Shown here: piece after piece, positions 4,700 through 62,151 of the stretch
How positions within the stretch are numbered: position 1 is the first letter of the stretch
Layout: the number at the start of each line of letters is the position of its first letter
Sequence record: PQ567651.1
Direction: 5' to 3' (one strand)
Source: Escherichia phage cardinal
DNA length: 64,000 nt
Notes under the pieces: model-generated
The model's database searches: none
Seen by the model: the letters and a program-made list of their open reading frames with translations, nothing else
Told to the model about the DNA's origin: nothing
Program-made: the position numbers and the translations under genes

Positions 4700-4700
4700 G

Positions 4701-12839: not shown

Positions 12840-13017
12840 ACAATACGGAGAGGGTGAAGTATATAAAATATACAATAAACGTGGAGATAAACTCCTATAT
12901 ACAATCACAATCCCAGAAAACATGTGTAAAGCTGGTTTAGACCGTATGCTTTTCTTTAAATATAACATTCCACCAGGAGATTATGTAGCTAAAAAGGTGA
13001 GCACTATTGGAAAATAA
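12823..13017 (+). CDS. hypothetical protein
   Basis: track ORF, overlaps neighbours by a few codons. Confidence 0.45.
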   Translation: MASHGKQYGEGEVYKIYNKRGDKLLYTITIPENMCKAGLDRMLFFKYNIPPGDYVAKKVSTIGK

Positions 13018-13582: not shown

Positions 13583-13627
13583 TAAAGTATTATCGCTCCC
13601 ACAAATGGGAGCGTTAGAGGAGAAAAT

Positions 13628-14191
13628 ATGGCTAAACTTTATTTCCGATATAGTCCGATGAACAGTGGTAAAAGCACACATTTGCTACAAACAGCTTGGA
13701 ACTATAAAGAAAGAAATATGAAAGTTCTTCTTTTAACTTCAGCTTTAGATACCAGATCTGGTTGTGCTATTGCTTCTAGGATAGGTATTAAAGAGGAAGC
13801 AAAACCAGTTAAAACAAAAGAAGATATGCTGGAAATTTATACACAACTTAAAGAAAATCCAGTAGATGCAGTATTTGTGGACGAATCACAATTCCTAACT
13901 AAAGATATGGTTGACATTCTTGGAGATGTGGTAGATAATTACGATATTCCTGTATTCTGTTATGGGCTTAAAACAGATTTTGCTACAGAATTGTTTGAAG
14001 GTTCTGAACGGTTATTAGCCATAGCAGATTCAATTACAGAATTGAAAAGCATTTGTAAATGTGGAAGAAAAGCTATTTTCAATGCTAGACTTATCGACTC
14101 TAAAGAACAGATTGTTATTGGAGGAGAAGACATTTACGAAACAATGTGTAGAAAATGTTATAACAGGAGAAATAATGCGTCTAGTATGTGA
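13628..14191 (+). CDS. tdk: thymidine kinase
   Basis: N-terminal YFRYSPMNSGKSTHLLQ P-loop and C-terminal CKCG...CRKCY zinc motif. Confidence 0.85.
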   Translation: MAKLYFRYSPMNSGKSTHLLQTAWNYKERNMKVLLLTSALDTRSGCAIASRIGIKEEAKPVKTKEDMLEIYTQLKENPVDAVFVDESQFLTKDMVDILGDVVDNYDIPVFCYGLKTDFATELFEGSERLLAIADSITELKSICKCGRKAIFNARLIDSKEQIVIGGEDIYETMCRKCYNRRNNASSM

Positions 14192-14765
14192 TTGGGATTT
14201 AGTAATAGCTCCTGCCGATGTAGAATGGTTGAGTTGGTTAAATGCGGTAAGTAGATCTAATATCAAATTTGATAAGACACATAAGACTGTGCATTATGAT
14301 ATTACGAAATATTTTCCTGATTTTAAAAAGCAATTTGGTGTAGATCCTTACTCTTTTTGGGATAACCAACATCTATATGATACTATGGGAGTAGTACCTA
14401 ATAGTACAGATGTTGTTCATCGTATAATTGCAAATGGAGCTAATATATCTATAGCAAGCCACACTAAAGGTGGACACCTTAGTTCTAAATATAGACACGT
14501 AACACGATCTTTAGATAAAGTGGACTTTAGTAGAACATCTGGTAATGGCTTTTTTGCAACAAAAGAAAAATACTTATTACCTTGCGACGTAACTATTGAC
14601 GATAGGGCTGAAAATCTTGTCCTATTTCCAGATGAAACGTTGAAAATATATTTCAACACTATTTACGAAGATCCATACTTGGAAGAGTTAAAGAAACTTC
14701 CTAATGTAATTATCACTGGTTTAGATAATCAGTGGGAAGAAATTGAAAGTATTTTACTACCTTAA
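14175..14765 (+). CDS. HAD-family 5'(3')-deoxyribonucleotidase-like protein
   Basis: ATG after GGAGAAATA; N-terminal VCDWDLVIA (DxD HAD motif I); track ORF starts upstream inside tdk. Confidence 0.5.
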   Translation: MRLVCDWDLVIAPADVEWLSWLNAVSRSNIKFDKTHKTVHYDITKYFPDFKKQFGVDPYSFWDNQHLYDTMGVVPNSTDVVHRIIANGANISIASHTKGGHLSSKYRHVTRSLDKVDFSRTSGNGFFATKEKYLLPCDVTIDDRAENLVLFPDETLKIYFNTIYEDPYLEELKKLPNVIITGLDNQWEEIESILLP

Positions 14766-14774
14766 GGAGAAATA

Positions 14775-15746
14775 ATGACAAACTCTATTTCAGCAAAAAT
14801 TATTGCACACTCTCAAACATCTGAAGGTAAGGATATTGTTACCTTTGAACTTGAATATCCTCGAATCATTCACTCTGAATTGATGACGCATCGTTTGTTT
14901 TCTCGTAATGCCGCATCAAGTCGAGCTATCCCTGTTAAAACTCTAATTGAAATGGTACGGCAATCTCCAGCACGTCCTTATCGTTTTGGTGCTAACCAAC
15001 CAGGTATGCAAGATAAAGGCACAGATCACGATGCCCTGATTGATGCAGGTTACACTGCAAAAGAATGGTGGGACTTGGCTGCACTAAGTGCTGCACGTTT
15101 TGCAGAAGAGTTTGCCCTTGCTGGTTATCATAAACAGGTTGCAAACCGCCTACTAGAACCATTCCAGCGTATGAAGACTGTAGTAACCACTACAGAGCTA
15201 GAAAACTTCTTGTGGTTGCGCGTAGATGCTGATGCAGATCCTACTATTGAGGCTCTTGCTAAAGAAATTAAAAAACTGTATGAATCTTCTGAACCATATC
15301 TTCTTTTCCCAGGGGAATGGCATACACCTTACGTTAATCGTGATCGAGATCCAGAAACTGGCATGATCCGTTATTTCTTGGGTGAAACCTTCTCCAACGA
15401 GAAAATGTTGACAGAAGAGGAAGCAAAAGCTATTTCAGCTTCTTGTTGCGCTCAGGTAAGTTATCGTAAATTGAATGATACTAAAGATAAAGCATTGGAC
15501 ATCTATTCTCGTTTGCTGTCTGGACAAAAGGTACATGCATCTCCGTTTGAACACCAGGCAACGCCAATGAAAGAAATGGATTTGTCAGGATTAAAACAAC
15601 AGAAAGGTGGTATTAATATTCCTCCGTTCCCTACTTCTTGGGAAGAAGGTATTACACACATGGATCGTAAACATCGTTTGTGGAGTGGAAACTTCTGTGG
15701 TTGGATTCAACATCGTCAACTTTTGACTAACCATACAAAATGGTGA
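14775..15746 (+). CDS. thyX: flavin-dependent thymidylate synthase ThyX
   Basis: ThyX signature ELMTHRLFSRNAASSRAIP (RHR...S...R). Confidence 0.85.
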   Translation: MTNSISAKIIAHSQTSEGKDIVTFELEYPRIIHSELMTHRLFSRNAASSRAIPVKTLIEMVRQSPARPYRFGANQPGMQDKGTDHDALIDAGYTAKEWWDLAALSAARFAEEFALAGYHKQVANRLLEPFQRMKTVVTTTELENFLWLRVDADADPTIEALAKEIKKLYESSEPYLLFPGEWHTPYVNRDRDPETGMIRYFLGETFSNEKMLTEEEAKAISASCCAQVSYRKLNDTKDKALDIYSRLLSGQKVHASPFEHQATPMKEMDLSGLKQQKGGINIPPFPTSWEEGITHMDRKHRLWSGNFCGWIQHRQLLTNHTKW

Positions 15747-15763
15747 TCAACTTAAAATTATAG

Positions 15764-15792
15764 TTGACTTTTAATTGAGATTCGTGTAGTAT
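15764..15792 (+). promoter_or_regulatory. sigma70-like promoter TTGACT-17-TAGTAT
   Basis: consensus-like -35/-10 with 17-nt spacer in intergenic gap, followed by hairpin ggagagc/gctctcc and RBS. Confidence 0.5.
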
Positions 15793-15843
15793 AGGCTAAC
15801 GTTAGGAGAGCTATGCTCTCCTTAAAAGAGAGAAGGAGAATTT

Positions 15844-16254
15844 ATGTCACTAATTAATACAACCATTTGGGCGACCGTAAGTATGTCTACCATTAAGGCT
15901 ACACCGATCTGGAAAGAAATGGCTAAAAAACACGGAGGAAAAATTCCTCACGAGTATCATAACACTACATTGCGAGCAGCATTAGTAATGCTTGGTATGT
16001 CTACCGATGGACATTATACAGTAGAACGTGGTGTTAATATTCGTAGTAACAACAATCGACGTGTGGTGTTTGCAAATACTACATTGTATACTTTCCCAGT
16101 TCGACAAGACTATAAATATAAGCGAATCTATCAAGGTGTAGATATTTTGCACTTTGGAGAAGAAGATTTTACAGGTTGGGGTAGCTCTCATATCAAAATG
16201 GAAGACTTCGGAAATGAACATGATCCATCACGAGATGATGATTCTGAATTCTAA
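15844..16254 (+). CDS. hypothetical protein
   Basis: track ORF, RBS AAGGAGA. Confidence 0.55.
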   Translation: MSLINTTIWATVSMSTIKATPIWKEMAKKHGGKIPHEYHNTTLRAALVMLGMSTDGHYTVERGVNIRSNNNRRVVFANTTLYTFPVRQDYKYKRIYQGVDILHFGEEDFTGWGSSHIKMEDFGNEHDPSRDDDSEF

Positions 16255-16266
16255 TTGAGAGGCCAA

Positions 16267-16515
16267 ATGACAGAAAGTAATAAATATGAAGGCTGTGAAA
16301 TTGAAGTCTATTTTGATGAAACATTAGGTTGCAATGTAACAGTTATTCTTGATACATCTAAAAGATTATCCCCAAAAAGACAAGAAGCAGACCGCAAAGC
16401 AAAGGCAAAAGGTTTTGAAGGTATAGATCATTTTGAAGGTTTTCTATACGCAAATGGCTTATATAATGAGATGCGTGGCGGTTATGATGTAGATGTTCTA
16501 AACATGCACAATTAA
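16267..16515 (+). CDS. hypothetical protein
   Basis: ATG at 16267 after GAGAGG. Confidence 0.5.
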   Translation: MTESNKYEGCEIEVYFDETLGCNVTVILDTSKRLSPKRQEADRKAKAKGFEGIDHFEGFLYANGLYNEMRGGYDVDVLNMHN

Positions 16516-16526
16516 TAGGAGAGGAA

Positions 16527-18791
16527 GTGACTCAGTATCTAAGCAAATCTATCCGTTATGTAACAAAAACAAACGGCAAGAAAGAAGAATTTAATCCAGA
16601 AAAACTTCGTAAATGGTCAGAGTTTGCTGCTGGTAAATTAAATTGGTCTGAAATTGAACTCGAAGCTGTTAAACGTTGTTACGACGGTGTGCCTACTCGT
16701 GATTTACATAAAGCTATGATAGCAGCATGTATTGATAAGAAAGATCAGGCATATAGTGATATGGCAGGTCGGTTACTTCTTGGTATGATTTATAAACAGG
16801 CTCATGGGGGATATCACAATATCCCCTCCCTCCTGGATTTCTACAATATGTCTGTAAGTAAAGGCTATTGGGGAAAAATGGATTATACAGAAGAAGAAAT
16901 TATTGAGATTGGTAAAATTGTCAATCATGATAAAAACCTAACTTATGGTTATTCCGTACTGCGCCAGATGGTTGATAAGTATCTTGTGAAAGATGCGATC
17001 AATGATGTGGTTTTTGAATCACCACAATTTTTATTCATTGGTGTAGCAATGAAGGTAATGGAAATTCAACCAAAAGATCGCAGAGTAGAAGACATTAAAC
17101 GTCTATATACCTACGTAAGTGATCTTAAGATTAATTTACCATCACCTTATTTAACAACGTTGCGTACTAAGATTAAAGGTAGTGCTTCTTGTTGTCTGTT
17201 TAGAGCAGATGATACAGCAGAATCTTTAGCAATTGCTAACTATCTTGCTCATGAATATACATTGAATAATGCAGGTATTGGTGTTAACCTCCAAACCCGT
17301 GCTACAGGACAAGGTGTTAAGAACAACCGTATCGTTCACGGTGGTCTTTTACCATATCTGAAATGGATGGAAACAAGTGTTGGAGCATCAAAACAAGCAA
17401 GCCGTGGTGGAAGTGCAACAGTAACGTTTACAATATTAGAACCTGATTTTGAAGATCTGGTACGTTTGAAAAACCCAACTACTGTTAGTGAAAAACGAGT
17501 AGATAAACTTGATTACTCTATTGTAGTAAACAATGCTTTCCTGCGCCGTGCAGCAAAAGGTAAAGATTGGATGCTAGTCAGTTATGACGAAGCACCAGAA
17601 CTCTATGAGGCGCTTTATAAAAGCGAGGAAGAGTTTGAAGAAGTATATGAAAAAGTTAGTCGCAAACGAATTAAGAAGAAGTTTGTAAAAGCACGAGATC
17701 TTCTGGCAGAAATTATTACACAAAGAGCAGAGACAGGACGTATTTATATGTTCTTTGCGGATAATGCTAATAAGCATACTCCGTTTAAGGATGTTATTTA
17801 TCAGTCCAACTTGTGCCAAGAAATTTTCTTACCTACGAAAGCATTTCACAGTATGACTGATCTTTTCACAGGTGAGAATACAGAAGACCAAGAATTGGCA
17901 TTATGCTTCCTGTCTTCTATTGTAGCTGGTCGTGTTACACCAGAAGAATATGAAGATGTTGCATATTATACCGTTCTAACTATTGATAATGTTATTGAAA
18001 CAATGCAGTATCCGTTTAAACATAACGAAATCACTGCTAAAGCACGTAGGTCTATCGGTGTAGGTATTACAAACCTGGCACATTATCTGGCAAGTAATTT
18101 TGTTACTTATTCAGATCCTTACGGCAAAAAACTAATTCACGAATTAGCAGAAAGACATTATTACTGGTTAGCAAGAGCTTCTCTTCGTTTGGCAAAAGAG
18201 AAAGGTAATGCAGAATGGATGCATAAAACCAAGTGGCCTGAAGGATGGTTGCCTATTGATACCTACGCTAAAGCTGTAGACGATATTGGCAATTTTAAAC
18301 TTAAAATGGATTGGGAAGGTTTACGACAAGATATCATTGCACAAGGTGGTATCCGAAATAGCGTATTAGCAGCTATTGCTCCAAATGAGTCCAGTAGTCT
18401 TGTAAGTAATACGACTAACTCTGTGTATCCTGTACGTGATACTATAGTTTATAAACAAAGCCAAAAGGGTAATGTTCTGTTTATTGTGCCAGACTACGAT
18501 AAACTAAAAGATATTTACCAATCGGCTTGGGATACACCAGATAAAGATATGGCTGAAGCATATGGACTGTTGACTAAATTCTTAGATCAAGGTGCATCAT
18601 GTGATAAGTGGATTGACTATTCTAAGATGGAAGGTGGTCGTTTATCCATTAAATCAGAAATGCAATATATTCTTCAGTTTGCAAAACTTGGTGGTAAATC
18701 TTTGTACTACCTAAATAGCAGAACAAAATCGGCATCCTCACTCGCTCAAGAAGATTCTGAAGACGAGGGGTGTAGCGCCTGTAAAATGTAA
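16527..18791 (+). CDS. nrdA: ribonucleoside-diphosphate reductase large subunit
   Basis: 754 aa; N-terminal ATP-cone-like region, C-terminal Cys pair CSACKM, overall class Ia NrdA organisation. Confidence 0.85.
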   Translation: MTQYLSKSIRYVTKTNGKKEEFNPEKLRKWSEFAAGKLNWSEIELEAVKRCYDGVPTRDLHKAMIAACIDKKDQAYSDMAGRLLLGMIYKQAHGGYHNIPSLLDFYNMSVSKGYWGKMDYTEEEIIEIGKIVNHDKNLTYGYSVLRQMVDKYLVKDAINDVVFESPQFLFIGVAMKVMEIQPKDRRVEDIKRLYTYVSDLKINLPSPYLTTLRTKIKGSASCCLFRADDTAESLAIANYLAHEYTLNNAGIGVNLQTRATGQGVKNNRIVHGGLLPYLKWMETSVGASKQASRGGSATVTFTILEPDFEDLVRLKNPTTVSEKRVDKLDYSIVVNNAFLRRAAKGKDWMLVSYDEAPELYEALYKSEEEFEEVYEKVSRKRIKKKFVKARDLLAEIITQRAETGRIYMFFADNANKHTPFKDVIYQSNLCQEIFLPTKAFHSMTDLFTGENTEDQELALCFLSSIVAGRVTPEEYEDVAYYTVLTIDNVIETMQYPFKHNEITAKARRSIGVGITNLAHYLASNFVTYSDPYGKKLIHELAERHYYWLARASLRLAKEKGNAEWMHKTKWPEGWLPIDTYAKAVDDIGNFKLKMDWEGLRQDIIAQGGIRNSVLAAIAPNESSSLVSNTTNSVYPVRDTIVYKQSQKGNVLFIVPDYDKLKDIYQSAWDTPDKDMAEAYGLLTKFLDQGASCDKWIDYSKMEGGRLSIKSEMQYILQFAKLGGKSLYYLNSRTKSASSLAQEDSEDEGCSACKM

Positions 18792-18798
18792 TGAAACT

Positions 18799-18822
18799 AG
18801 GGGGCTTTGTCCCCCTTTCTTA
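18799..18822 (+). terminator. hairpin aggggg-ctttgt-ccccct + T-rich tail
   Basis: located right after nrdA stop. Confidence 0.5.
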
Positions 18823-18831
18823 AGGAGGAAT

Positions 18832-19167
18832 ATGCCTACATTAGTTGTATTACCTGGAGCAACACCACAAAGACATTGGGGAAATTATACACTGGTAGAT
18901 AGTAAAGATTTTACATTCGATTGGTGTTGCCATTATATTGCAGGTTTTCAATTTTCCAGTGTTGAAATATGGGCTTCCAATGATCCAGAAGCTACCTGGT
19001 ATGCTTTAACCAGGGCAAGATATGATGGAGAGGTTACTGTACTACTCACAAAGAGTGTATGGAACGCATTAGAGAAGGCTTACATAGAGAATGGTATGGA
19101 GAGAAAACACATTGATACAATAAAAGCAATGTGTGATATTGTGGAGGATTTAAATGGCAGCGATTAA
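18832..19167 (+). CDS. hypothetical protein
   Basis: track ORF between nrdA and nrdB. Confidence 0.5.
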   Translation: MPTLVVLPGATPQRHWGNYTLVDSKDFTFDWCCHYIAGFQFSSVEIWASNDPEATWYALTRARYDGEVTVLLTKSVWNALEKAYIENGMERKHIDTIKAMCDIVEDLNGSD

Positions 19168-20239
19168 TTTATACAACGACACTTACAAAGAAGGTTTCTA
19201 CCCTGTATTTTTGGGAGAACAGTTAGGTATTTTTGATTCTATTAACGTAACATACCCAGAAATGCATCGTCTGTACAAACTACAAAAACAGCAAGATTGG
19301 GATGAAAACGAAGTAAACTTAGATCAGACACGAAAAGATTTCGTAGCTTGTTCTAAAAGCAACTATGATGTTATGATCAAAAACCTATCCTTCCAATGGG
19401 AAAATGATTCACTTGCTAAATCAATCATCACTTTGTTTGCACCATTTTTAAGCAACAACGAAGCATGTGCAATGATGATGAAGCAATCAGAAATGGAAGT
19501 TTTACACGCTTTGACATATTCTGAAATTATTCGTCAGTGTATCCCTAATCCAAATGAAGTTATCGATCAGATTATGGAGAACGAAAGAATCTTCCAGAGG
19601 ATGGGTATAGTTGAAGAGATAATGAGTGATCTGGCAGAGGCAGGGCATAAATATGCTCTAGGTCTGATTGAGAAGGATGATAACCTTCGTCTACTGATTC
19701 TGAAAGGAATGATTGCACTTATCGGTCTGGAAGGCATTCAATTCATATCATCTTTTGCTGCAACATTTGCCTTAGCAGAGCAGCAATTGTTTGTAGGTGC
19801 AGCTAAACTCATTCAAAAAATTATGTTGGATGAACTATTGCACGTTAAAATGGATTATGCTATTATTGATGCACTGCTGAAAGATCCTGTTTGGAGAAAA
19901 GTATACGAAGACAATATCGACGTTCTGACAGAAATTCTTGACACGGTAGTTGGACAAGAGGAAGATTGGTGTGACTATCTGTTTAGTGAAGGAAGGGTTA
20001 TCGTTGGTGGTAACGCAGAGTTGTTCAAACTTTGGGTTTACTTCAATGCCGCGCCTATCTATCGCAGACTGAAAATGAAACACAAATTCCGTGCACCGAA
20101 GAAAAGTCCACTGCCTTGGATGGATGTTTGGTTAAATCCAGATCAAATTCAAGCAGCAGCACAGGAGATCCAAATTACAGCTTACAAACTGAATTCAGCA
20201 AATAAAGATGTAAGTGATGACGAGGAGTTAGACTTCTAA
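19154..20239 (+). CDS. nrdB: ribonucleoside-diphosphate reductase small subunit
   Basis: 361 aa; position after nrdA and iron-ligand-like E/H-containing helices; C-terminal acidic tail DDEELDF. Confidence 0.8.
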   Translation: MAAINLYNDTYKEGFYPVFLGEQLGIFDSINVTYPEMHRLYKLQKQQDWDENEVNLDQTRKDFVACSKSNYDVMIKNLSFQWENDSLAKSIITLFAPFLSNNEACAMMMKQSEMEVLHALTYSEIIRQCIPNPNEVIDQIMENERIFQRMGIVEEIMSDLAEAGHKYALGLIEKDDNLRLLILKGMIALIGLEGIQFISSFAATFALAEQQLFVGAAKLIQKIMLDELLHVKMDYAIIDALLKDPVWRKVYEDNIDVLTEILDTVVGQEEDWCDYLFSEGRVIVGGNAELFKLWVYFNAAPIYRRLKMKHKFRAPKKSPLPWMDVWLNPDQIQAAAQEIQITAYKLNSANKDVSDDEELDF

Positions 20240-20457
20240 TGAAACTACTTTGTGTTGGATTAATTTCTGACTTCAAAGACGTTTTCGAAAAGGGAGCCTC
20301 TTATGAGGCTTCCGAATTACAGAATGGTTTCTGTGATGTTTACGGCAAACGTTTAAAAAAGAATGGTGATCATTGGCTAGGAGTTATGTCTTGCGGTCAT
20401 ATTATAGTTAATGGTGTAGCCAAGTTTGAAATTATCAAAGGAGAAAAAGATGATTGA
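20239..20457 (+). CDS. hypothetical protein
   Basis: track ORF. Confidence 0.45.
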   Translation: MKLLCVGLISDFKDVFEKGASYEASELQNGFCDVYGKRLKKNGDHWLGVMSCGHIIVNGVAKFEIIKGEKDD

Positions 20458-20632
20458 TTTTGTTGATGTAGATATTAATTCTGACTTAACAGAAGATGAA
20501 GGTGGTGCTTTTGTGTGTTCAGATGGAGAGAAATGTTTTACTCTGATGGTAGAAACTTATGATGGTATCACAGAAATTCTGTTAACAGAGAATGAGTTAA
20601 AACAGATGTTAGAAAAGATTGAGGAGCTTTAA
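20450..20632 (+). CDS. hypothetical protein
   Basis: ATG after GGAGAAAAAG within track ORF 20426..20632. Confidence 0.45.
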   Translation: MIDFVDVDINSDLTEDEGGAFVCSDGEKCFTLMVETYDGITEILLTENELKQMLEKIEEL

Positions 20633-20634
20633 TA

Positions 20635-20781
20635 ATGGACGATGTAAGTATTTGTCCTATCTGCGGCGGCACTGGGAATTTTATTGTTAGTATGGAACAA
20701 TTTATTCCTTGTTGGAATTGTAACGGTTTAGGTTTCGTTCATACGGAAGAAAAAGAAGAGGAGGAAGATAATGGGAACTAA
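20635..20781 (+). CDS. small Cys-pair (zinc-ribbon-like) protein
   Basis: 48 aa, CPICGG...CWNCNG; RBS GAGGAG; below track size cutoff. Confidence 0.35.
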   Translation: MDDVSICPICGGTGNFIVSMEQFIPCWNCNGLGFVHTEEKEEEEDNGN

Positions 20782-21097
20782 TATTGAATGGCGTATGTTA
20801 CAGGGTGCGCCTTTTAATAAATGGGAAGAGGCTGTAGGAGAAGATCCTAGAATTGAAGAAGAATTTGATGGAGATTTTAACTGGTTCTTACAAGAAGGTC
20901 TTGATTTAAGTCGTATCTCTCCTTTCTATGACGCTGATGAATCTTACTGCATATATGGCATTTATTTAGAAGGTGGCGAAGGAAGTATAGCTGTAGATCT
21001 TGAGCAACTAAATAAGAATGCAAAAGAAGCCTATGCACAACTTCTTGAAAAATATAACATTGAAACGGAAACTATTATTTCTCAACACGTTTGGTAA
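20771..21097 (+). CDS. hypothetical protein
   Basis: track ORF. Confidence 0.5.
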   Translation: MGTNIEWRMLQGAPFNKWEEAVGEDPRIEEEFDGDFNWFLQEGLDLSRISPFYDADESYCIYGIYLEGGEGSIAVDLEQLNKNAKEAYAQLLEKYNIETETIISQHVW

Positions 21098-21110
21098 GGA
21101 GGATAGTAGA

Positions 21111-21308
21111 ATGATGCTAGATCAACTGATCAATGCTCCTCGCGTAACAGTAAGTCCAAAAACATTTGCATCACTTTTAGAAGATGCTAGAGAGGTTTAT
21201 AACTTTACTGAAGAAGAGATTCCTGTTCCTGTTGAAAAAGGTTCCAGATGGTTGTTTTATGAAGGTATTATTTTTACTGAAGGGAATAATTGGAAGGAGA
21301 CTAAATGA
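21111..21308 (+). CDS. hypothetical protein
   Basis: ATG after AAGGAGG within track ORF 21018..21308. Confidence 0.45.
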   Translation: MMLDQLINAPRVTVSPKTFASLLEDAREVYNFTEEEIPVPVEKGSRWLFYEGIIFTEGNNWKETK

Positions 21309-22213
21309 AATACTTAGTAACAGGTGGTTTAGGCTTTATTGGAAGTGCGGTAGTTCGTTTCCTGGCTAAAAACACTAAGAATGATATTTACGTTATAGAT
21401 AAATGGAGTTACGCTTCAGACCCTAGAAATTTATCAGAAACACCTAATGTAAAGTTTTGTCGTGTTGACTTGACAAATGCTCAGTTAACTGCTAAGATTG
21501 TGGCAGATGTTAATCCAGATTATATAATGCATCTTGCAGCAGAAAGTCACGTAGATAACTCAATAGCATCACCGAGTGTTTTTATAAATTCAAATATTGT
21601 TGGAACATTTAATCTTCTAGAAGCTGTTCGTTTAATGGGAGATAAATCAAATCTTAAAATGTTTCATCATATTTCAACAGACTATGTTTTTGATGGGCAT
21701 GTTGCTGGCACAGAAGATAGTAAAACAAACCCCTTGAACACCTACGGTTACAGTAAACAATTAGGTGAAACTTTAGTACAAACAGTTTGTCCTACAGCAC
21801 TTATTATCAGAACAGCTTCTGTTTATAGTGAATTTGGACATAACTTTTTGAAAACTATGTTGGAACGCTACAACGGTGGTCAAAAAGAATTTAATGTAGT
21901 ATGTGATCATTTATCATGTCCTACTTATGCACCTGATCTTGCAGAAACAATTTTTAAACTTGTAAAAGATGGTGTAAATAGTAAAATTGTACACTATGCA
22001 GGTGCAGATTATATTTCTTGGTATGATTTTGCACGAAAGATATTTCTTGTTATAGATTTATCTGTTACAGTTAATCCTGTATCTGCTTCAACCTATAATT
22101 CCAAAGCAGTCAGACCAGCAACATCTTATTTAAGAACAGATCCTACTTTAAATCCGCGAAGTGTTGATAGCGGTATTGTAAGAGCTTTAACTATACTTTT
22201 AAACAAGGAGTGA
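21305..22213 (+). CDS. NAD(P)-dependent epimerase/reductase, RmlD (dTDP-4-dehydrorhamnose reductase)-like
   Basis: Rossmann VTGGLGFIGS and STDYVFDG motif characteristic of RmlD-type reductases. Confidence 0.5.
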   Translation: MKYLVTGGLGFIGSAVVRFLAKNTKNDIYVIDKWSYASDPRNLSETPNVKFCRVDLTNAQLTAKIVADVNPDYIMHLAAESHVDNSIASPSVFINSNIVGTFNLLEAVRLMGDKSNLKMFHHISTDYVFDGHVAGTEDSKTNPLNTYGYSKQLGETLVQTVCPTALIIRTASVYSEFGHNFLKTMLERYNGGQKEFNVVCDHLSCPTYAPDLAETIFKLVKDGVNSKIVHYAGADYISWYDFARKIFLVIDLSVTVNPVSASTYNSKAVRPATSYLRTDPTLNPRSVDSGIVRALTILLNKE

Positions 22214-22476
22214 AAATGAATTTTATTATCTACGGTAAACCAAATTGTCCTTTCTGCACTAACGCTAAGATTCTACTAGAACAGCGTGAACAGGATTTTA
22301 AATACCTTACCTTAGATGAAGACTATTCTTTAGATCAGATTCAGAATCTGGTTTTAGAGAAAACAGGTGTTCTACCACGCACATTTCCTCAGATTTTTGT
22401 GGAAGATGGTGAACAGCTAACCCACGTAGGAGGTTTTTCTGAACTACGTGAATTCATGGCTCAGATTGCGGAGTAA
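22210..22476 (+). CDS. glutaredoxin / NrdH-like redoxin
   Basis: 88 aa with CPFC active site and thioredoxin-fold length. Confidence 0.75.
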   Translation: MKMNFIIYGKPNCPFCTNAKILLEQREQDFKYLTLDEDYSLDQIQNLVLEKTGVLPRTFPQIFVEDGEQLTHVGGFSELREFMAQIAE

Positions 22477-22480
22477 CAAT

Positions 22481-22624
22481 ATGAAAGGTAAACAGAAACG
22501 TAAAATCTTTTCTCGTGCTTTGGCAACAGAGCTTAAGTCCCAAACTAAAAAGACGAAGCCTAAACGTGAAATGTCTCCTGAACACCTACTGTTTCAAGAG
22601 TTAGATCATGGGGAGGGCGACTGA
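22481..22624 (+). CDS. small basic protein
   Basis: 47 aa ORF with RBS GGAG; below track cutoff. Confidence 0.3.
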   Translation: MKGKQKRKIFSRALATELKSQTKKTKPKREMSPEHLLFQELDHGEGD

Positions 22625-22636
22625 TATAAGGAAAAC

Positions 22637-23137
22637 ATGGCTAAAGTAGTTGATGTGTTTGATATGTTACGTTTTGATGAAGGACTAAAGCTAACTGTGT
22701 ATCCTGATACCGAAGGGTATTGGACAGTTGGTATTGGACACCTTCTGACAAAACTCAAAGATAAAGCAGAAGCTATACGTATTCTTGATAACTTAGTAGG
22801 TAGAAAAACCAATGGGGTTATTACTGAAGCGGAAGCTAGAAGAATCTTTGAGAGTGACGTAAAGAAAGCGATACAACAAATCCATTCAAGTGCCATATTA
22901 TCTCCTATTTACGATAAAGTAAGTCCTAATCGTAAAATGGCTATTATTAATATGGTATTTCAAATGGGATTGAAAGGTGCAGAATCTTTCAAAAATAGCT
23001 TGACTTTAGTGAGTAATTCATATTATACTCAAGCCTCTATAAATTTACGTAAAAGTAAATGGTATCGCCAAACACCTAATCGCGCAGAGCGTGTAATTCA
23101 GGTACTTAAAACTGGAACATTAGACGCTTATAACTAA
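22637..23137 (+). CDS. T4-type lysozyme (GH24 endolysin)
   Basis: MLRFDEGLKLTVYPDTEGYWTVGIGHLLTK and WYRQTPNRAERVI closely match T4 lysozyme. Confidence 0.85.
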   Translation: MAKVVDVFDMLRFDEGLKLTVYPDTEGYWTVGIGHLLTKLKDKAEAIRILDNLVGRKTNGVITEAEARRIFESDVKKAIQQIHSSAILSPIYDKVSPNRKMAIINMVFQMGLKGAESFKNSLTLVSNSYYTQASINLRKSKWYRQTPNRAERVIQVLKTGTLDAYN

Positions 23138-23140
23138 ACA

Positions 23141-23162
23141 AAGGGGCGAAAGCCCCTTTTAT
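23141..23162 (+). terminator. rho-independent terminator ggggc-gaaa-gcccc + TTTT
   Basis: same hairpin sequence as at 12404 and 34425. Confidence 0.7.
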
Positions 23163-23175
23163 AAGGAGTGCAAAC

Positions 23176-23928
23176 ATGGGAAATAAAACCGCAAAGGCTC
23201 GTCGTCAATCAGCAGCCAATGATGACAAACGTGCCAGTCGTTATGCGGCTAAAGCAGTAGGAAATGATGATTACCGTCTTGATGAATTTACCCCTGTTGG
23301 GAATCAAGAAGCTATTGTAAGAAGCATGGTTTGGAATGATTTAACCATTGTTAATGCCCCAGCAGGAACAGGAAAAACGACAACAGCACTATGGAAAGCA
23401 TTGCAAATGCTTAAAGCTGGTGATTTCAGAAAGTTGATTTTCCTTAAAAACCCGACAGAAGTAGGTGATGATCAAATTGGTTTCTTATCTGGAGATAAGA
23501 CTGATAAACTAGCAGCACATTACGAATCAACTAAAAGAATTTTCCAACAGTTTATGACTGCAAATAAATTGGAAAACGATATTGCAAGTGGCAAAATTGA
23601 ACTTAATATTCCAAACTATGCACTAGGTGCTACGTGGGATAACAGCATTATTCTTATTGATGAAGTTCAACTTATGTCACCAAATACAGTAAAACTTCTC
23701 CTTGAGCGAGCAGGTCTTAATACACGTATTGTCATTATGGGTGATGTTAATCAAACATATGCAATTAAACGAAGAGCTAATGGGTTAGGTGATTTGTTAG
23801 ATCGTGTTGTTCCTATTAACGAAGAAGGAGAAAGGGAAGCTATTGTAGATTTTATTGGTTATGTTGAAATGACAACTGCTGATAACCAACGTTCCCGTTT
23901 GTCTCAGTTCATCACGGAAGTATATTAA
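23176..23928 (+). CDS. phoH: PhoH-like ATPase
   Basis: Walker A NAPAGTGKTTTAL and PhoH-like overall organisation. Confidence 0.8.
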   Translation: MGNKTAKARRQSAANDDKRASRYAAKAVGNDDYRLDEFTPVGNQEAIVRSMVWNDLTIVNAPAGTGKTTTALWKALQMLKAGDFRKLIFLKNPTEVGDDQIGFLSGDKTDKLAAHYESTKRIFQQFMTANKLENDIASGKIELNIPNYALGATWDNSIILIDEVQLMSPNTVKLLLERAGLNTRIVIMGDVNQTYAIKRRANGLGDLLDRVVPINEEGEREAIVDFIGYVEMTTADNQRSRLSQFITEVY

Positions 23929-23964
23929 TAATTACAAGGCAAGGATGCCTGTTATGGAGGTTAA

Positions 23965-24456
23965 ATGACGCTAATTGAGATTGATCGCAATGGTATTGAT
24001 GAATGCTATCAAGCTGGCTTAGTTAAGCCGAATGAGTTTAGACAGATTTATATTGACAAGATTGAAAAAGAAATATCTCTTCGTTTAGAGAACATGACAA
24101 CTTTGCAAAAAGTTCAGATGTTTTTTAGTTGGTTGAAAGGAGAGGATTGGCTAACTAAATATTACCAGGAATTATCTGATAGTCAAGAAGGCTTGTTTGA
24201 GTGTATAATAAATGTAGCTGGGTCTAATTCAGAGTTACTCCTGATTGATGAAGAAGATTCTAAACTTCTTTTTCTTAGCAGTATTTTTCACAAGAAATCT
24301 ATGTTAGTAAGAAATTGCAGTGATTTACTAAATCATCCACTAACAAGAACTAATAAAATTCTTGTGGATAAAGAAACACTAAGAGCTATTGATTACCTCC
24401 GTAAATATGTAAGCGGTGGTAAAGCAGTCCTTAAAACACTACAGGAGGAAGTATAA
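23965..24456 (+). CDS. hypothetical protein
   Basis: track ORF. Confidence 0.5.
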   Translation: MTLIEIDRNGIDECYQAGLVKPNEFRQIYIDKIEKEISLRLENMTTLQKVQMFFSWLKGEDWLTKYYQELSDSQEGLFECIINVAGSNSELLLIDEEDSKLLFLSSIFHKKSMLVRNCSDLLNHPLTRTNKILVDKETLRAIDYLRKYVSGGKAVLKTLQEEV

Positions 24457-25109
24457 TGACAACAATTATTGCAACACGTAACAAAATTTTGTCTGACGGT
24501 AAGGTAACAGTAGGTAGTCGTGTAGACACTTTAAACTTCAAGAAAGTGCGTAAAATTGGGGACTACCTTGTTGGTGGTGCAGGACGTCTGTCTTCTATCC
24601 TGACTTTCTTTTCTTGGTTTGAACAAAACTTACAATGCCAGGCAGCACAAGAGACAATCCCAGGTTTGGTGATCCAGTCAGATCCCGATAAAGAAGATGA
24701 AGAGTTTGTGGCATTGGTTGTTCATCCAGATGGTAAAATTTATATGCACGAGGGTAATAATCCAACGCGAGCATATCCTTTAACTGAAGATTATTATGCT
24801 GTTGGTAGTGGGGCAGATTTTGCTTTAGCAGCTTTAGATGCAGGGGCAACTCCAGAAGAAGCGATGGAAGTTGCAAAACTGCGAGATGCTTTTTCCGGCG
24901 GTGAAACTTTTATCGAAGAGATCGAAGAACAACTGGAGTTAACAGCGGAAGATATTCTGAACTTCAGCAAGGAGCAACTAATTAGTATGCTGTTGACTGG
25001 TGATCCTGATAGCGATGAAGCTGAAAGTATTTTAGCAGAAATGAAAGAATCACAAGAAAAAGTATTGACAGTCTCTGAAAAACTTGATAAAGTGTCCTCT
25101 GATAATTAA
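24456..25109 (+). CDS. HslV-like Ntn-hydrolase peptidase with acidic C-terminal extension
   Basis: MTTIIATR (Thr right after Met) and YAVGSGADFALAA resemble HslV TTIV.. and AIGSGG motifs. Confidence 0.5.
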   Translation: MTTIIATRNKILSDGKVTVGSRVDTLNFKKVRKIGDYLVGGAGRLSSILTFFSWFEQNLQCQAAQETIPGLVIQSDPDKEDEEFVALVVHPDGKIYMHEGNNPTRAYPLTEDYYAVGSGADFALAALDAGATPEEAMEVAKLRDAFSGGETFIEEIEEQLELTAEDILNFSKEQLISMLLTGDPDSDEAESILAEMKESQEKVLTVSEKLDKVSSDN

Positions 25110-26321: not shown

Positions 26322-26528
26322 TGGCATACAATTACTATCTGGTATATTTTTAACGAAACTAAGAAAAAAGACACAGGAACTAATGTTTATGCGGAATCCG
26401 AAGAACACGCAAAAGCTATTGGTTCAGTGCTTCTTTCTAGAATAGCAGGTGAAGAAATTCCTGTAGAGGCTATCTTTGCAGAAGTTGACCCTAGTATTCA
26501 AGAGGATGGTATTACCACTACTTAACTG

Positions 26529-28052: not shown

Positions 28053-28379
28053 ATGAAAATAACGACAGAACAGGCTTTAATAGACAAAGGAAGGGAAATC
28101 TTAGAAAGTCATTTGGAGGATATTCAAAGGACTCCAGGGTATCTCGGCTGGCGTATACAAGAAGCCGTCGATTTTCTACCCCGTAAAAATAAAGAGATTG
28201 AAGTAAGATCTCTATTCCTCCTTGTTAAAGTAGATGGTGACGCTATATACAAAGATGTAGCGTCTCACATTGAACAAATAGAAGAAAAAGCCTACAAAGA
28301 ATTTGCAGATCTTGTTGTAGAACATAATATAGAAGGTAAAGTTAATATCTTTATACTTATGGATTTTGAGGAGAGTTGA
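28053..28379 (+). CDS. hypothetical protein
   Basis: track ORF, RBS AAGGAGAAGGGG. Confidence 0.5.
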   Translation: MKITTEQALIDKGREILESHLEDIQRTPGYLGWRIQEAVDFLPRKNKEIEVRSLFLLVKVDGDAIYKDVASHIEQIEEKAYKEFADLVVEHNIEGKVNIFILMDFEES

Positions 28380-29121
28380 TGCTAGTATATCAAGAAATTA
28401 GTGTAAAAGATGATCAAGACCTGTTTATTATTGGTGATTTACATGGTTGCTTTGATTGTACCAGAAAGGTGTTAATACTTTAGGTATCCGAGATCAAGAT
28501 GTTGTTGTATCTTTAGGAGATCTTACAGATCGCGGCAAGCAGAATTTTCGTTGTGTTGTTGAATTCACCAGAAAGCTAAATCGTTATGGTATTCGTGGAA
28601 ACCATGAAGATATGATGATTAAAGGGTTGCTAGAAGGTGATAGACGATATTACGAATGTTGGTTTCAGAACGGAGGCCATACAGTTCTAGACGAGTGTGG
28701 AGAAGAGGGTGCAACTGCTCTTGCTTCGATGCTAGAAGATTTACCTGTTGTACTTGTTGTCAATTATCGTAATATGAAACTAGGCTTTATTCACGGTGGG
28801 TATCCTTCAGTTTTGGAACATTTGCCAATAACAGAAGTTTTGCCATTTTGTTTGAATATGAATAAAGAGCAAGTTTCTCGATTCACAGAATCTTTAATGT
28901 GGGATCGTGATATGATAGATTGCGCACTTGAAGGGATTCTTCTTCCTAGAGTTTCAGGAGTAGATTATGTATTTCACGGGCATTCTTATGTTCCTAAACC
29001 TGTGATTAGCAGTAATAGGGTATATATGGACACAGGATCTTGCTTCAATGGTAATTTAACCTTTGCATATTTTGATGATTCAAATACGTTACAATTTTAT
29101 TCTACTTTAGAGGAGGACTAA
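28379..29121 (+). pseudogene. lambda-type Ser/Thr protein phosphatase (PPP family) interrupted by apparent 1-nt frameshift near 28465..28483
   Basis: GDLHGC in frame of ATG 28379, then GDLTDRG, GNHE, HGG, GH in the track frame 28456..29121. Confidence 0.6.
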
Positions 29122-38008: not shown

Positions 38009-38203
38009 TCAATAAAAGTTGAAAAAACCTTCAGCATCCAAGCTAACTTTTGCGAAAGTTGGATAAAGCGTGTATATAGCAACTTCTCTGTCTCCATCTT
38101 TAGCTGCTCTCTCAATATACGCGTAGATATTTTGTAAACTCTCCTTTGCTTTGTTAAGTTCTGCGTTTTCTGCCAGTTCTCTCATTTTATCTGCTACAGT
38201 CAT
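38009..38203 (-). CDS. hypothetical protein
   Basis: track ORF. Confidence 0.45.
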   Translation of the reverse strand: MTVADKMRELAENAELNKAKESLQNIYAYIERAAKDGDREVAIYTLYPTFAKVSLDAEGFFNFY

Positions 38204-46542: not shown

Positions 46543-47000
46543 TTACACCTCTCATTAGTAGTTTGTTATGCGCGATATTGCATATTTTATGGAACACAGT
46601 GTACAGACATTTCTATTCAATGCAAGCATTATTTGCATCTTATAAATTTACGTCTCATGCCACACATCATACAGCGTCTTTTCATCTATTACAAGAACAG
46701 CAACCTAGGAACATCATTAATGGAGGGATTAGTATAGGGATTAGTATAGGATTTCCCTATCAATTATTCTATATATACCTAATATTTTTAACACACCCCT
46801 TTGTACATAATATAGACAAATAAATATCTATGCCACAAAAATTTTCTGGTATACCCGATTTATTTCGACACACCCCCTTTTCATAAGCGTAAAGTCAATA
46901 ATATCAATAACTTGCCGCAAAATACTGCTCGCTTGCGAGAGGTGCTTAACGCGATTTTCAGCGCCCCCCCGATTTCTGCCGACCGTCCCCCTCAAATATC

Positions 47001-59538: not shown

Positions 59539-60936
59539 TTACACCTCCTTATTGTATACTAATTTGCCACCATATTGTGTAACAATTTTTTGAAGATTTT
59601 CCAAATCAGAAACACTTACTGTTTCTGTATGACCATCTTTCAACTCTCTTGCCGTTAAAATACCAGTTTTTAATTTTTTCTTTATAGCTCTTTCAGCAGC
59701 CTTACATTGTTTCACTGTGCTAAAATCATATAAACAAATACGCTCCATAGGAAACATATTACAGCTATTTTGACGTTTTAATCGACTATCACTATTTTTA
59801 GCTATACCAAACTTAAGAGCAACTATAATATTATCATCCTTAACAATATTAATATATAACTGCTGCTGACTATGACCAGCACACATAGGACAACCTCGAC
59901 CGTGGCTTAATAAGGCATTAGCCCTCCCTGTCTGTTCCCCATGCACAAGACAAAGATATTTAAACTTACCGTGACTTCTAGACGGTTTACCGATCCAACC
60001 TACCCAGACATACCCTTTCCCTTCTACTTCCTTTTTTACCCTGTAGGTAATCTGATTTTCTGTATAGTGATAACTAGTTGCACAGCGGCAAGGGATACTT
60101 CCTTGTTTTAGGGGCCACCCTTTAGAGTAAAATTTACCATCGCAAACACCTGCTTGAACATATTCATCATGGGAGCAAACAGGACACTCAACCATCCATA
60201 CTGCATCACGCTTGTTACGTTTCCCTGTATTGGTGAAGATAGTGCCTTCCTTAAATTTCCCTGTAGAAAAGAAATCTGCAATATGTTGATCGTCGGACAT
60301 TGTTAGTGCCTTCCTTGTATTCTCATACCTACATAAAGGACAACCATAACCACGTTTAAAATTGTTAATACTTGTAGTATCCCATTTATAACCACAGTGA
60401 CACAACAAATCAAGTTTTGTTTTATGTCCTTTCCATTTTCCAACGTACCCTAACACCTGATACCCCTTCTTCTGTGCTATCTCTTCCAAGATCGGTAATT
60501 CTGTTTCCCATGCTAACGGTTTATTACTTGCACATGCCGGACAACCACGTCCATTCCTAAAATCAATAATGTTTGTGGTGTTCCACTCTCCATGTTTAGG
60601 GCAAATTATGCGAATTTTTGTTCGCACACCTCGCCACTCCTCGGCAAGACCTATAAAAGTAAACCCTCTTTCTTTAGCAATATCAACAAGGGAGATACAT
60701 TCCTTTTCTTCTGTTACTTTTCTATGACCATTGCAATCGGAGCAACATTTACCGCCTTTAGTTTTAAATACATTGATTATGGTACTTTCCCACTCTCCAT
60801 GATCAGAGCAAGATAGCTTAAGCCTAGTCCTGCTACCTTTCCATTCACCAACATAACCCAAGATTTGAATATTGTGATTTTTAGCAAGGGGTATTAATTC
60901 TTCTTTATATTGTTCCCATGATTTTAGTGCTACCAT
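59539..60936 (-). CDS. protein with five N-terminal Cys-rich (zinc-ribbon-like) repeats and C-terminal T5orf172/GIY-YIG-like domain
   Basis: repeats of LGYVGEWKG..TKL.L.C..HGEW.TT.IN.F..G.GCP.C; C-terminal LYINIV...FGIAKNSDSRLKRQ. Confidence 0.5.
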   Translation of the reverse strand: MVALKSWEQYKEELIPLAKNHNIQILGYVGEWKGSRTRLKLSCSDHGEWESTIINVFKTKGGKCCSDCNGHRKVTEEKECISLVDIAKERGFTFIGLAEEWRGVRTKIRIICPKHGEWNTTNIIDFRNGRGCPACASNKPLAWETELPILEEIAQKKGYQVLGYVGKWKGHKTKLDLLCHCGYKWDTTSINNFKRGYGCPLCRYENTRKALTMSDDQHIADFFSTGKFKEGTIFTNTGKRNKRDAVWMVECPVCSHDEYVQAGVCDGKFYSKGWPLKQGSIPCRCATSYHYTENQITYRVKKEVEGKGYVWVGWIGKPSRSHGKFKYLCLVHGEQTGRANALLSHGRGCPMCAGHSQQQLYINIVKDDNIIVALKFGIAKNSDSRLKRQNSCNMFPMERICLYDFSTVKQCKAAERAIKKKLKTGILTARELKDGHTETVSVSDLENLQKIVTQYGGKLVYNKEV

Positions 60937-60973: not shown

Positions 60974-61000
60974 AAAACCCGCCGAAGCGGGTTTTTATTT
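60974..61000. terminator. terminator hairpin cccgc-cgaag-gcggg with A/T flanks
   Basis: caagaaaacccgccgaagcgggtttttattt; identical core at 35177. Confidence 0.6.
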
Positions 61001-61010: not shown

Positions 61011-62045
61011 TTAAAACACACTTGCCAAAGTTGCACCATTGGTGATAGTTGGTTCCAGAACAATACGGAAAGAATCTTCTGGATCATCACTAAACACAAC
61101 GATTTTACCGCCTGTAATAAGGTCTGCTTTCATTTTTGTCGCATTCAATGGAATTCGAGCATCTCCTTCATCATCAAAAACCACGTAAGAGCTATTAGCA
61201 AGGGCTTCTTTAGAGTCTGCATCACTTGGAGATGACAAGTACACGTCTAGTGTGCACGAACCACCTAAAAAGATTGCAGGTGTGAAGTTATGCCAACTAG
61301 ATACCCAGCTAACTTTCTGAAGTTTTCCATTAATAACAACGCTGCTGATATCCCATTTATTACCACCACCTAAAGAAACACCCATCATAGAGATGCATTC
61401 TTTAAAGGATAAATCAGGGTAGAAATTAAGTTCTTCTACTATACCTTGGATCACATCAAAGGACAACTCTAAACTTACATCCCAAAGTCTTTGGAAATTA
61501 TCAAAGTGTGCTTTGTTATCCAGGTTTTTATCTAAATAGTCAATCATAGTTTCTAGTGAGATTTTATCATAATTAAAATTATAAAACACACGACTAGGAC
61601 GATTTAAAAAGAATTCAGAGATAAAACCACTGTTTTTAGTCAGAATAAACAGTTTATTACCACTGCCAGTACCATCTAACAAAGTGAGAAGTGCTTCTTG
61701 ATCTTGTTTCTTCTCATACACTTTATCAAACTCGTCAAAAATAATCACTGCTTTGTCGGTGATCTTGCTAATAAGTTCAATGAAATTAGCATCGCTGTAG
61801 GCTTGAGTAACCATAATAGTTGGAATACCTTCTTCTACAAGGTCACGACTAATGAGTTTGGCTAACATAGTTTTACCACTGCCCTTAGTTCCTGTCAGGA
61901 GCAAACCTGTATTTTTACCTTGTGCACTCCGGCGATGGAATGTACGAATAACGTGATTTGCTCGTTTTTCTGTTTCACCATACAGAACATCCGGTACACC
62001 TGTTAGATTACCACGGCTTAAAAAAATAATTGCCAAGGGGATCAC
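61011..62045 (-). CDS. AAA+/P-loop ATPase; N-terminus may extend to ATG near 62140 through a frameshift at an A7/T7 run
   Basis: Walker A GTKGSGKTML, Walker B VIIFDEFD; GTG start lacks RBS while upstream ATG has AAGGGG RBS in +1 frame. Confidence 0.6.
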   Translation of the reverse strand: MIPLAIIFLSRGNLTGVPDVLYGETEKRANHVIRTFHRRSAQGKNTGLLLTGTKGSGKTMLAKLISRDLVEEGIPTIMVTQAYSDANFIELISKITDKAVIIFDEFDKVYEKKQDQEALLTLLDGTGSGNKLFILTKNSGFISEFFLNRPSRVFYNFNYDKISLETMIDYLDKNLDNKAHFDNFQRLWDVSLELSFDVIQGIVEELNFYPDLSFKECISMMGVSLGGGNKWDISSVVINGKLQKVSWVSSWHNFTPAIFLGGSCTLDVYLSSPSDADSKEALANSSYVVFDDEGDARIPLNATKMKADLITGGKIVVFSDDPEDSFRIVLEPTITNGATLASVF

Positions 62046-62151
62046 GACTAACAGTATAGAATCCAGGTGGAAGATAGTTAGATTCCACGCCCATATCTTT
62101 ATTTACACTTACAATATCACCATAAATCGTGTATTTCATTTTAAACCCCTT

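What the first reader, a model, noticed from the sequence alone, without database searches (positions are those of the whole stretch)
61011..62140. AAA+/P-loop ATPase whose likely N-terminus is in another frame across an A7/T7 run
The track ORF begins at a GTG with no RBS. About 95 nt upstream is an ATG with an AAGGGG RBS whose 43-codon ORF runs into the ATPase frame at a T7 run (plus strand ttaaaaaaataat near 62029..62035); one fewer T fuses them. This is either a sequencing error, slippage, or a separate overlapping leader ORF.
Basis: seen in the sequence. Interest (0 to 1): 0.45.

Follow-up and report, generated by a model that had tools for sequence, protein, structure and literature searches.

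The report
ATPase gene split by one extra T
A conserved phage AAA+ ATPase gene is cut in two here by a single extra T in a run of T's that no related phage genome carries, most likely an error in an unpolished automatic assembly, so the finding is ordinary.

Summary
On the minus strand, an ATG (62139) with an AAGGGG Shine-Dalgarno site opens a 43-codon ORF. That ORF meets the GTG-started ATPase ORF (61011..62045) at a T7 run. The run lies at 62020..62026, not 62029..62035.

Removing one T gives a 375-aa protein that is 100% identical to the single-ORF ATPase (phi92 gp221 type, PHROG 2376) of several Justusliebigvirus phages. All 55 GenBank relatives and 3 IMG/VR contigs have one base fewer, as T6 or C-T5. 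Homologues down to about 30% identity start at the ATG-equivalent residue. The 43 codons encode a predicted N-terminal beta-domain.

So this is one gene, not a leader ORF plus an ATPase, and not a conserved programmed frameshift. The run is not conserved, there is no stimulatory element, and a +1 shift would be needed.

The window is a Logan contig of SRR33749226, an unpolished k=31 de Bruijn assembly. It carries at least three other private 1-2-nt indels that break genes intact in every relative checked. Three relatives carry 0-1 such indels each.

Most likely this is an assembly or sequencing indel (about 0.6). Otherwise it is a recent real frameshift mutation (about 0.3). Interest is low.

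The parts
61011..62139 (-). Whole AAA+ ATPase gene (phi92 gp221 type). It is 1129 nt as read, and 1128 nt (375 codons plus stop) once one T of the run is removed.
   Evidence: Repaired translation has no internal stop. It is 100% identical over 1-375 to relatives and matches PHROG 2376 at E=6.6e-108 over 1-367. Relatives annotate one CDS of 1128 nt.
62146..62151 (-). Shine-Dalgarno-like AAGGGG, 6 nt upstream of the ATG at 62139
   Evidence: Read directly. The AAAAGGGG stretch is conserved in 4 relatives, with spacer length varying by 1-2 nt.
62008..62139 (-). 43-codon ORF. It is the real N-terminal segment of the ATPase (residues 1-39) plus 4 out-of-frame codons and a stop.
   Evidence: In the AlphaFold model (pLDDT 90), residues 1-43 form a five-stranded beta-domain. 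P24 and L40 are nearly invariant in 102 homologues.
62020..62026 (-). T7 homopolymer (A7 on the plus strand) carrying the private extra base. This is the frame junction, at codons 38-40 (TAT TTT TTA in relatives).
   Evidence: Alignment with 4 relatives shows T6 or C-T5. All 55 GenBank relatives span 80 nt where the window has 81 nt, and none is 100% identical. In IMG/VR the T7 pattern gives 0 hits and the T6/C-T5 pattern gives 3.
61011..62045 (-). GTG-started 344-codon ORF as called. Its first 8 codons (MIPLAIIF) are out-of-frame sequence. From LSRGN onward it is the ATPase, residues 40-375.
   Evidence: Prodigal called the same two pieces on the source contig.
61869..61892 (-). Walker A motif GTKGSGKT (residues 83-90)
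   Evidence: Read directly. G83, G86, G88 and K89 are invariant in 102 homologues. Pfam AAA PF00004 scores 38.9 bits against a cut-off of 21.2.
61731..61736 (-). Walker B acidic pair D135-E136 (IIFDEFD)
   Evidence: Read directly. Both residues are invariant in 102 homologues.
60974..60995 (-). Intrinsic-terminator-like hairpin AAAACCCGCTTCGGCGGGTTTT just after the ATPase stop codon

Best explanation
This is one ordinary gene: the 375-aa AAA+ ATPase found in all phi92-like (Justusliebigvirus) phages. It starts at the ATG at 62139. In this sequence the gene appears split because the T run at 62020..62026 holds seven T's where every relative has six, or C plus five.

The extra T is most probably a homopolymer-length error in the source assembly rather than biology. 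That source is an automatic, unpolished k=31 de Bruijn graph contig from SRA run SRR33749226 (Logan).

Shown: the two pieces are collinear with the single-ORF homologues. The insertion is private to this contig. The contig carries several other private frame-breaking indels.

Inferred: the cause is technical. The reads and the sequencing platform could not be inspected.
For: (1) One gene.
- Relatives have a single 1128-nt CDS from the same ATG.
- The repaired protein is 100.0% identical over 1-375 to five or more relatives and to cluster P0001, which has 49 member sequences.
- Distant homologues (64% down to about 27% identity) align from residues 1-3 in one frame.
- The model shows residues 1-43 as a beta-domain fused to the AAA core.

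(2) A private insertion.
- 0 of 55 GenBank relatives and 0 of 3 IMG/VR contigs have T7.
- The 43-aa and 344-aa products occur on a single contig of the whole gene-position index, logan:SRR33749226_0.

(3) No decay.
- Against 9 relatives, the repaired CDS differs at 5-22 codons. All differences are synonymous except one.

(4) Excess of indels in this contig.
- The window has private 1-2-nt indels that break ORFs intact in arall, alia and VEcB at five further sites: 43267, 38025, 28457 (a NinI-like Ser/Thr phosphatase cut just after GDLHG), 26349 and 46967.
- Three of these were checked against all GenBank relatives and are shared by 0/36, 0/55 and 0/55.
- The three relatives have 0-1 such private ORF-breaking indels each.
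- Private substitutions are not in excess: 365 in the window against 393-474 in the relatives.

(5) Logan contigs are built from k-mers with base qualities discarded and without polishing (PMC12424806).
Against: - The sequencing platform and the reads of SRR33749226 were not available. If the run is deep Illumina data, a majority-rule de Bruijn assembly rarely miscounts a 6-7-nt run.
- Two of the other private indels (TTT to TT, and loss of one TG from TGTGTG) are not classic long-homopolymer errors.
- Replication slippage produces real mutations in exactly these contexts.
- The comparison set for counting broken ORFs was only three relatives.
Confidence: 0.6

Rival explanations
1. The extra T is a genuine, recent replication-slippage mutation in this phage or phage population. 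The ATPase is then knocked out. At most, a trace of full-length protein is made from the rare transcripts or ribosomes that slip on the U7 run, and the phage tolerates the loss.
For: The indel sits in a homopolymer, the usual site of real slippage mutations. The allele is a singleton. The absence of any nonsynonymous change fits a very recent event as well as it fits an error. The contig's substitution divergence is normal, so the data are not generally noisy.
Against: It would require five or six independent private frameshifts in conserved genes within 64 kb, including a phosphatase and this ATPase that are intact in all 36-55 relatives. Three sister genomes of similar divergence carry 0-1 each. 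The first in-frame ATG of the downstream piece lies after the Walker A motif, and the GTG has no SD, so the gene would be essentially dead despite very strong purifying selection in the family.
Confidence: 0.3
2. The site is a programmed recoding signal. Either a +1 ribosomal frameshift or RNA-polymerase slippage on the U7/T7 run is used to make the full-length ATPase, and perhaps also a separate 43-aa product.
For: Homopolymeric A/T runs can support transcriptional slippage, and 'pseudo-pseudogenes' rescued in this way are documented (PMC1088944). The two frames overlap cleanly at the run.
Against: - The two-ORF arrangement and the run length are not conserved. All 58 relatives have one ORF, and many have the run interrupted as TAC TTT TTA.
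- Seven bases is below the 8-9 nt at which slippage is productive or selected against in bacteria (PMC1088944).
- A -1 slip runs straight into UAA. The +1 shift that is needed has no hungry or stop codon and no upstream SD stimulator.
- The 95 nt downstream fold no better than shuffles (z = -0.11).
Confidence: 0.04
3. The 43-codon ORF is an independent leader or overlapping small gene, and the ATPase genuinely initiates at the GTG at 62045.
For: Only the ORF layout as read, and the good SD in front of the short ORF.
Against: The short ORF's residues 1-39 are the conserved N-terminus of the ATPase family. No homologue starts at the GTG-equivalent position. The first 8 codons of the GTG ORF are out-of-frame with respect to every homologue. 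The GTG has no SD.
Confidence: 0.02

Closest known systems
Escherichia phage phi92 gp221 and its orthologues in Justusliebigvirus (annotated 'ATPase', 'putative ATPase'; PHROG 2376)
   Same: 98-99% nucleotide identity and the same neighbours: an upstream 145-aa PHROG 3054 protein and a downstream CapR/T5orf172 endonuclease. After removal of one T the protein is 100% identical over 375 aa.
   Different: This copy has T7 instead of T6 or C-T5 at codons 38-40, so it reads as 43-aa and 344-aa ORFs.
Classical-clade AAA+ ATPases with an N-terminal beta-domain (proteasomal Rpt subunits, Bcs1, B. subtilis YjoB, NSF/p97 D domains)
   Same: These are the best structural matches of the model, at Foldseek E of about 1e-8 to 1e-7. 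They share Walker A, Walker B, a sensor-1 Asn and the NRPxR arginine motif. Pfam AAA scores above its cut-off.
   Different: TM-scores are only 0.36-0.46 and sequence identity 14-20%. The roughly 115-residue C-terminal beta-rich domain has no counterpart in these proteins. No function has been demonstrated, and no protease domain is present.
Transcriptional-slippage genes (Thermus dnaX A9, IS-element A8-A9 runs, 'pseudo-pseudogenes'; Baranov et al. 2005, PMC1088944)
   Same: Two overlapping frames joined at an A/T homopolymer.
   Different: The run here is only 7 nt, is not conserved, and is absent from every homologue.
+1 programmed ribosomal frameshifting of the prfB type (from general knowledge)
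   Same: The direction of shift that would be needed here is +1.
   Different: There is no in-frame stop or rare codon at the shift site, no internal SD a few nucleotides upstream, and no conservation.

Membership tests
PHROG 2376 / phi92 gp221-type phage ATPase | Full-length match to the family profile, N-terminus included | tested here: met
   E=6.6e-108, protein residues 1-367 against profile positions 1-357 of 363, using the one-T-deleted translation. The sequence as read supplies the same residues in two frames.
PHROG 2376 / phi92 gp221-type phage ATPase | Single uninterrupted ORF of about 350-390 codons | tested here: not met
   As read, the gene is split 43 + 344 by the T7 run. All relatives are uninterrupted.
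Classical AAA ATPase (Pfam PF00004) | Domain score above the gathering threshold | tested here: met
   38.9 bits against 21.2, residues 79-170.
Classical AAA ATPase (Pfam PF00004) | Walker A GxxGxGKT, Walker B hhhhDE, sensor-1 Asn, and arginine(s) of the second region of homology | tested here: met
   GTKGSGKT at 83-90, D135-E136, N169, and N179-R180-P181-x-R183. All are invariant or nearly invariant in 102 homologues. Assigning R180 and R183 as arginine fingers is by motif analogy only.
FtsH-like protease / Zn metalloprotease (label used in some GenBank records) | Peptidase M41 domain with an HEXXH zinc site | tested here: not met
   No M41 hit in Pfam or NCBIfam. No HEXXH in the 375-aa sequence (read directly).
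Programmed ribosomal frameshift site | Slippery sequence and two-ORF layout conserved among homologues | tested here: not met
   0 of 58 relatives have the split. The run is T6 or C-T5.
Programmed ribosomal frameshift site | Stimulatory element (downstream structure, or upstream SD plus a slow codon) | tested here: not met
   The downstream 95 nt fold with z = -0.11 against shuffles. The 0-frame codon after the run is AAG, and no SD-like sequence lies just upstream.
Programmed transcriptional slippage site | Conserved A/T run of 8-9 nt or more at the frame junction | tested here: not met
   The run is 7 nt here and 5-6 nt in relatives. The threshold is taken from PMC1088944.
Programmed transcriptional slippage site | Heterogeneous run length in mRNA | not testable with these tools
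   This needs RNA-seq or RT-PCR of infected cells.

The most novel reading that the evidence does not exclude
The T7 allele is real. The phage still makes some functional ATPase because E. coli RNA polymerase occasionally drops a U on the U7 run, or the ribosome shifts +1. That would make this a naturally occurring 'pseudo-pseudogene' in a lytic phage, expressed at a strongly reduced level.
Probability: 0.04. Interest if true: 0.3.

Novelty: not a real feature. Interest (0 to 1): 0.1.

Why it matters
The value is mainly practical. The gene should be annotated as one 375-aa ATPase starting at the ATG, flagged as frameshifted or low quality, and not as a leader peptide plus a GTG-started ATPase.

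It also shows that this Logan contig carries several private frame-breaking indels. Other split genes in the same window should be treated with the same suspicion. Contigs of this kind should be checked against relatives before recoding is proposed.

If the allele were real, it would show only that this widely conserved phage ATPase of unknown function is dispensable under some conditions.

Tried and rejected
- Looked for the T7 allele elsewhere: GenBank phages, IMG/VR exact-pattern scans, complete E. coli genomes and plasmids (no match at all), and exact look-ups of both split products. It occurs only on the source contig.
- Looked for a frameshift stimulator by folding the downstream RNA. 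Nothing was found.
- Tried to assign the ATPase a function with Pfam, PHROGs, NCBIfam, PADLOC, PDB sequence search and Foldseek. Only a generic classical AAA+ assignment resulted. NCBIfam hits (Hda, DnaC-like, IstB, RuvB) are all far below their cut-offs, and the 'FtsH-like protease/Zn metalloprotease' label is not supported.
- Raw counts of private indels per genome were uninformative, because divergent intergenic stretches inflate them in the relatives. Only isolated indels inside ORFs conserved in the other genomes discriminate.
- Tested whether private differences cluster at GTAC sites, as a possible methylation-linked basecalling artefact. Two of 8 private indels lie within 1 nt of a GTAC, against 3.4% of random positions expected within 5 nt. 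Private substitutions show no enrichment. The test was post hoc, so it is not used as evidence.
- The Logan paper does not state how long-read runs were handled, so the platform remains unknown.

Full report
**What is in the sequence.**
On the minus strand, AAGGGG (62151..62146) precedes an ATG at 62139 by 6 nt. The ORF from that ATG runs 43 codons to a TAA at 62010..62008. A second ORF, in the +1 frame, is listed from a GTG at 62045 to 61011 (344 codons). It carries the Walker A motif GTKGSGKT. The GTG has no purine-rich stretch in front of it. The two frames overlap across a run of seven T's (A7 on the plus strand) at 62020..62026. Deleting one T gives an uninterrupted 1128-nt ORF of 375 codons.

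**What the window is.**
The region is 98-99% identical to 55 GenBank phage genomes of the genus Justusliebigvirus (phi92-like, Stephanstirmvirinae). There the gene is phi92 gp221, annotated 'ATPase'. The window itself is not one of those records. Exact look-ups of its proteins place it on a single contig, logan:SRR33749226_0 (71,993 bp), from the Logan assembly of the SRA. Logan contigs are made from k=31 unitigs. K-mers seen once are dropped, base qualities are discarded, the graph is simplified with Minia3, and no polishing is done (PMC12424806).

**One gene or two.**
- In four relatives inspected in detail, the ATPase is one 1128-nt CDS starting at the same ATG. In the alignment the only structural difference is the run: T6 in KKP_3264, BME3 and phiWec187, and C-T5 (TAC TTT TTA) in arall.
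- An 81-nt query centred on the run matches 80 nt in every one of the 55 records, and none reaches 100% identity.
- An exact T7 pattern finds nothing in IMG/VR, while the T6/C-T5 pattern finds three contigs.
- The repaired protein is 100.0% identical over residues 1-375 to the single-frame translations of alia, ZYD, PaulScherrer, AMO3598 and C3. It is also identical to protein cluster P0001, which has 49 member sequences.
- More distant homologues also align from residues 1-3 in one frame: Phapecoctavirus 64%, Klebsiella phage 74%, Erwinia jumbo phages 39%, Salmonella phage 7-11 36%, Bacillus Bcp1 27%.
- In alignments of 16 and 102 family members, the N-terminal 40 residues are conserved, with P24, L40, Y53 and G54 nearly invariant.
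- The PHROG 2376 profile covers residues 1-367.
- An AlphaFold model built on the 102-sequence alignment (mean pLDDT 90) shows residues 1-43 as a five-stranded beta-domain followed by the AAA core. The junction falls in the last strand of that domain.

The 43-codon ORF is therefore the N-terminal domain of the ATPase and not a leader gene. The first eight codons of the GTG ORF (MIPLAIIF) are out-of-frame sequence.

**Is it programmed recoding?**
No conserved feature supports that.
- The split layout exists in 0 of 58 relatives. In many of them the run is interrupted by a synonymous TAT to TAC change.
- The shift needed is +1. A -1 slip reads UUU UUU UAA and terminates at once (read).
- There is no stop or rare codon and no internal SD at the site. 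The 95 nt downstream fold no better than shuffled sequence (z = -0.11).
- For transcriptional slippage, seven bases is below the 8-9 nt at which slippage is productive or counter-selected in bacteria (Baranov et al. 2005, PMC1088944).
- Low-level adventitious slippage cannot be excluded, but it would be a consequence of the extra T, not a designed mechanism.

**Error or real mutation?**
The repaired CDS differs from nine relatives at 5-22 codons, and all but one of these differences are synonymous. The full-length frame has therefore been under strong purifying selection right up to this sequence. That fits either a technical artefact or a very recent mutation.

The discriminating evidence comes from the rest of the window. 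I aligned the 64 kb to arall, alia (OZ035770) and VEcB (OZ035773) and collected 1-2-nt indels where the window differs from all three. Besides the ATPase, the following are private to the window and shorten or split ORFs of identical length in all three relatives:
- 43267: loss of one TG, splitting the 194-aa arall_123 homologue into 58 + 154.
- 38022..38027: A6 against A5, in the arall_139 homologue.
- 28456..28457: TT against TTT, cutting a NinI-like Ser/Thr phosphatase straight after its GDLHG motif.
- 26347..26351: T5 against T4, in the arall_165 homologue.
- 46964..46970: C7 against C6, in a stretch not annotated in arall.

Three of these sites were checked against all GenBank relatives and are shared by none: 0/55, 0/36 and 0/55. 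The same test applied to the three relatives finds 0-1 private ORF-breaking indels each. Private substitutions are no more numerous in the window (365) than in the relatives (393-474). The lineage is therefore ordinary in divergence but has an excess of frame-breaking indels.

Together with the unpolished, quality-blind origin of the contig, this makes an assembly or sequencing indel the best explanation (about 0.6). A set of real mutations remains possible (about 0.3). The platform and reads are unknown, and two of the other indels are not classic long-homopolymer errors.

**What the protein is.**
It is a classical-clade AAA+ ATPase.
- Pfam PF00004 scores above its threshold.
- Walker A, Walker B (D135-E136), N169 and the NRPxR motif are invariant across the family.
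- The nearest solved folds are proteasomal Rpt subunits, Bcs1, YjoB and NSF, at E of about 1e-8 to 1e-7 but with TM-scores of only 0.36-0.46. PDB sequence hits are weak p97/Cdc48 matches.
- No curated NCBIfam or PADLOC family is reached.
- The 'FtsH-like protease/Zn metalloprotease' label used in some records is unsupported. There is no M41 domain and no HEXXH motif.
- Its function is unknown. The family is widespread in large myoviruses of Gram-negative and Gram-positive hosts.
- The gene ends at a terminator-like hairpin at 60995..60974.

**Verdict.**
It is a private single-base homopolymer discrepancy in a well-known, otherwise perfectly conserved gene, most likely technical. It is neither a new recoding site nor a new gene arrangement. 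Interest is low.

Noticed in passing
window 28456..28457 (+ strand gene, about 28370..29118): A NinI-like Ser/Thr phosphatase (arall_160 homologue, 247 aa) is frameshifted by a private TTT to TT change right after the GDLHG motif. None of 55 GenBank relatives share it.
   Followed up: partly
window 43267 (- strand gene): A private 2-nt deletion (TGTGTG to TGTG) splits the arall_123 homologue (194 aa) into 58 + 154 codons. None of 36 relatives share it.
   Followed up: partly
window 38022..38027 and 26347..26351: Private one-base homopolymer expansions (A6 against A5, T5 against T4) disrupt small conserved ORFs, the arall_139 and arall_165 homologues. The first is shared by 0 of 55 relatives.
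   Followed up: partly
window 46964..46970: The C7 run is a private expansion of the C6 seen in relatives, in a stretch not annotated in phage arall. An open frame of 97 codons in the relatives is split here. Whether it is coding is unclear.
   Followed up: no
window 59539..60936 (-): The CapR-repeat plus T5orf172 endonuclease (PHROG 681) just downstream of the ATPase is 465 aa here, against 390-397 aa in arall, alia and VEcB, and the middle of the gene is divergent. It looks like a variable homing-endonuclease-like gene. This exact protein is found only on the source contig.
   Followed up: partly
window 1..25000: This stretch corresponds to about 27.3 kb in relatives, matched in two BLAST pieces. 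The relatives therefore carry about 2.3 kb that the window lacks. The position and content of that segment were not determined.
   Followed up: no
window 43267 and 28457: Both non-homopolymer private indels lie within 1 nt of a GTAC site, against 3.4% of random positions expected within 5 nt. Relatives encode a cytosine methyltransferase, so a modification-linked basecalling artefact is conceivable. This is post hoc and weak.
   Followed up: partly
GenBank records MG065639, MG065645, MG065656, MG065689: Four records labelled 'Campylobacter phage' with host C. jejuni are about 98% identical to these E. coli Justusliebigvirus genomes. The host label is probably a contamination or mislabelling issue.
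   Followed up: no
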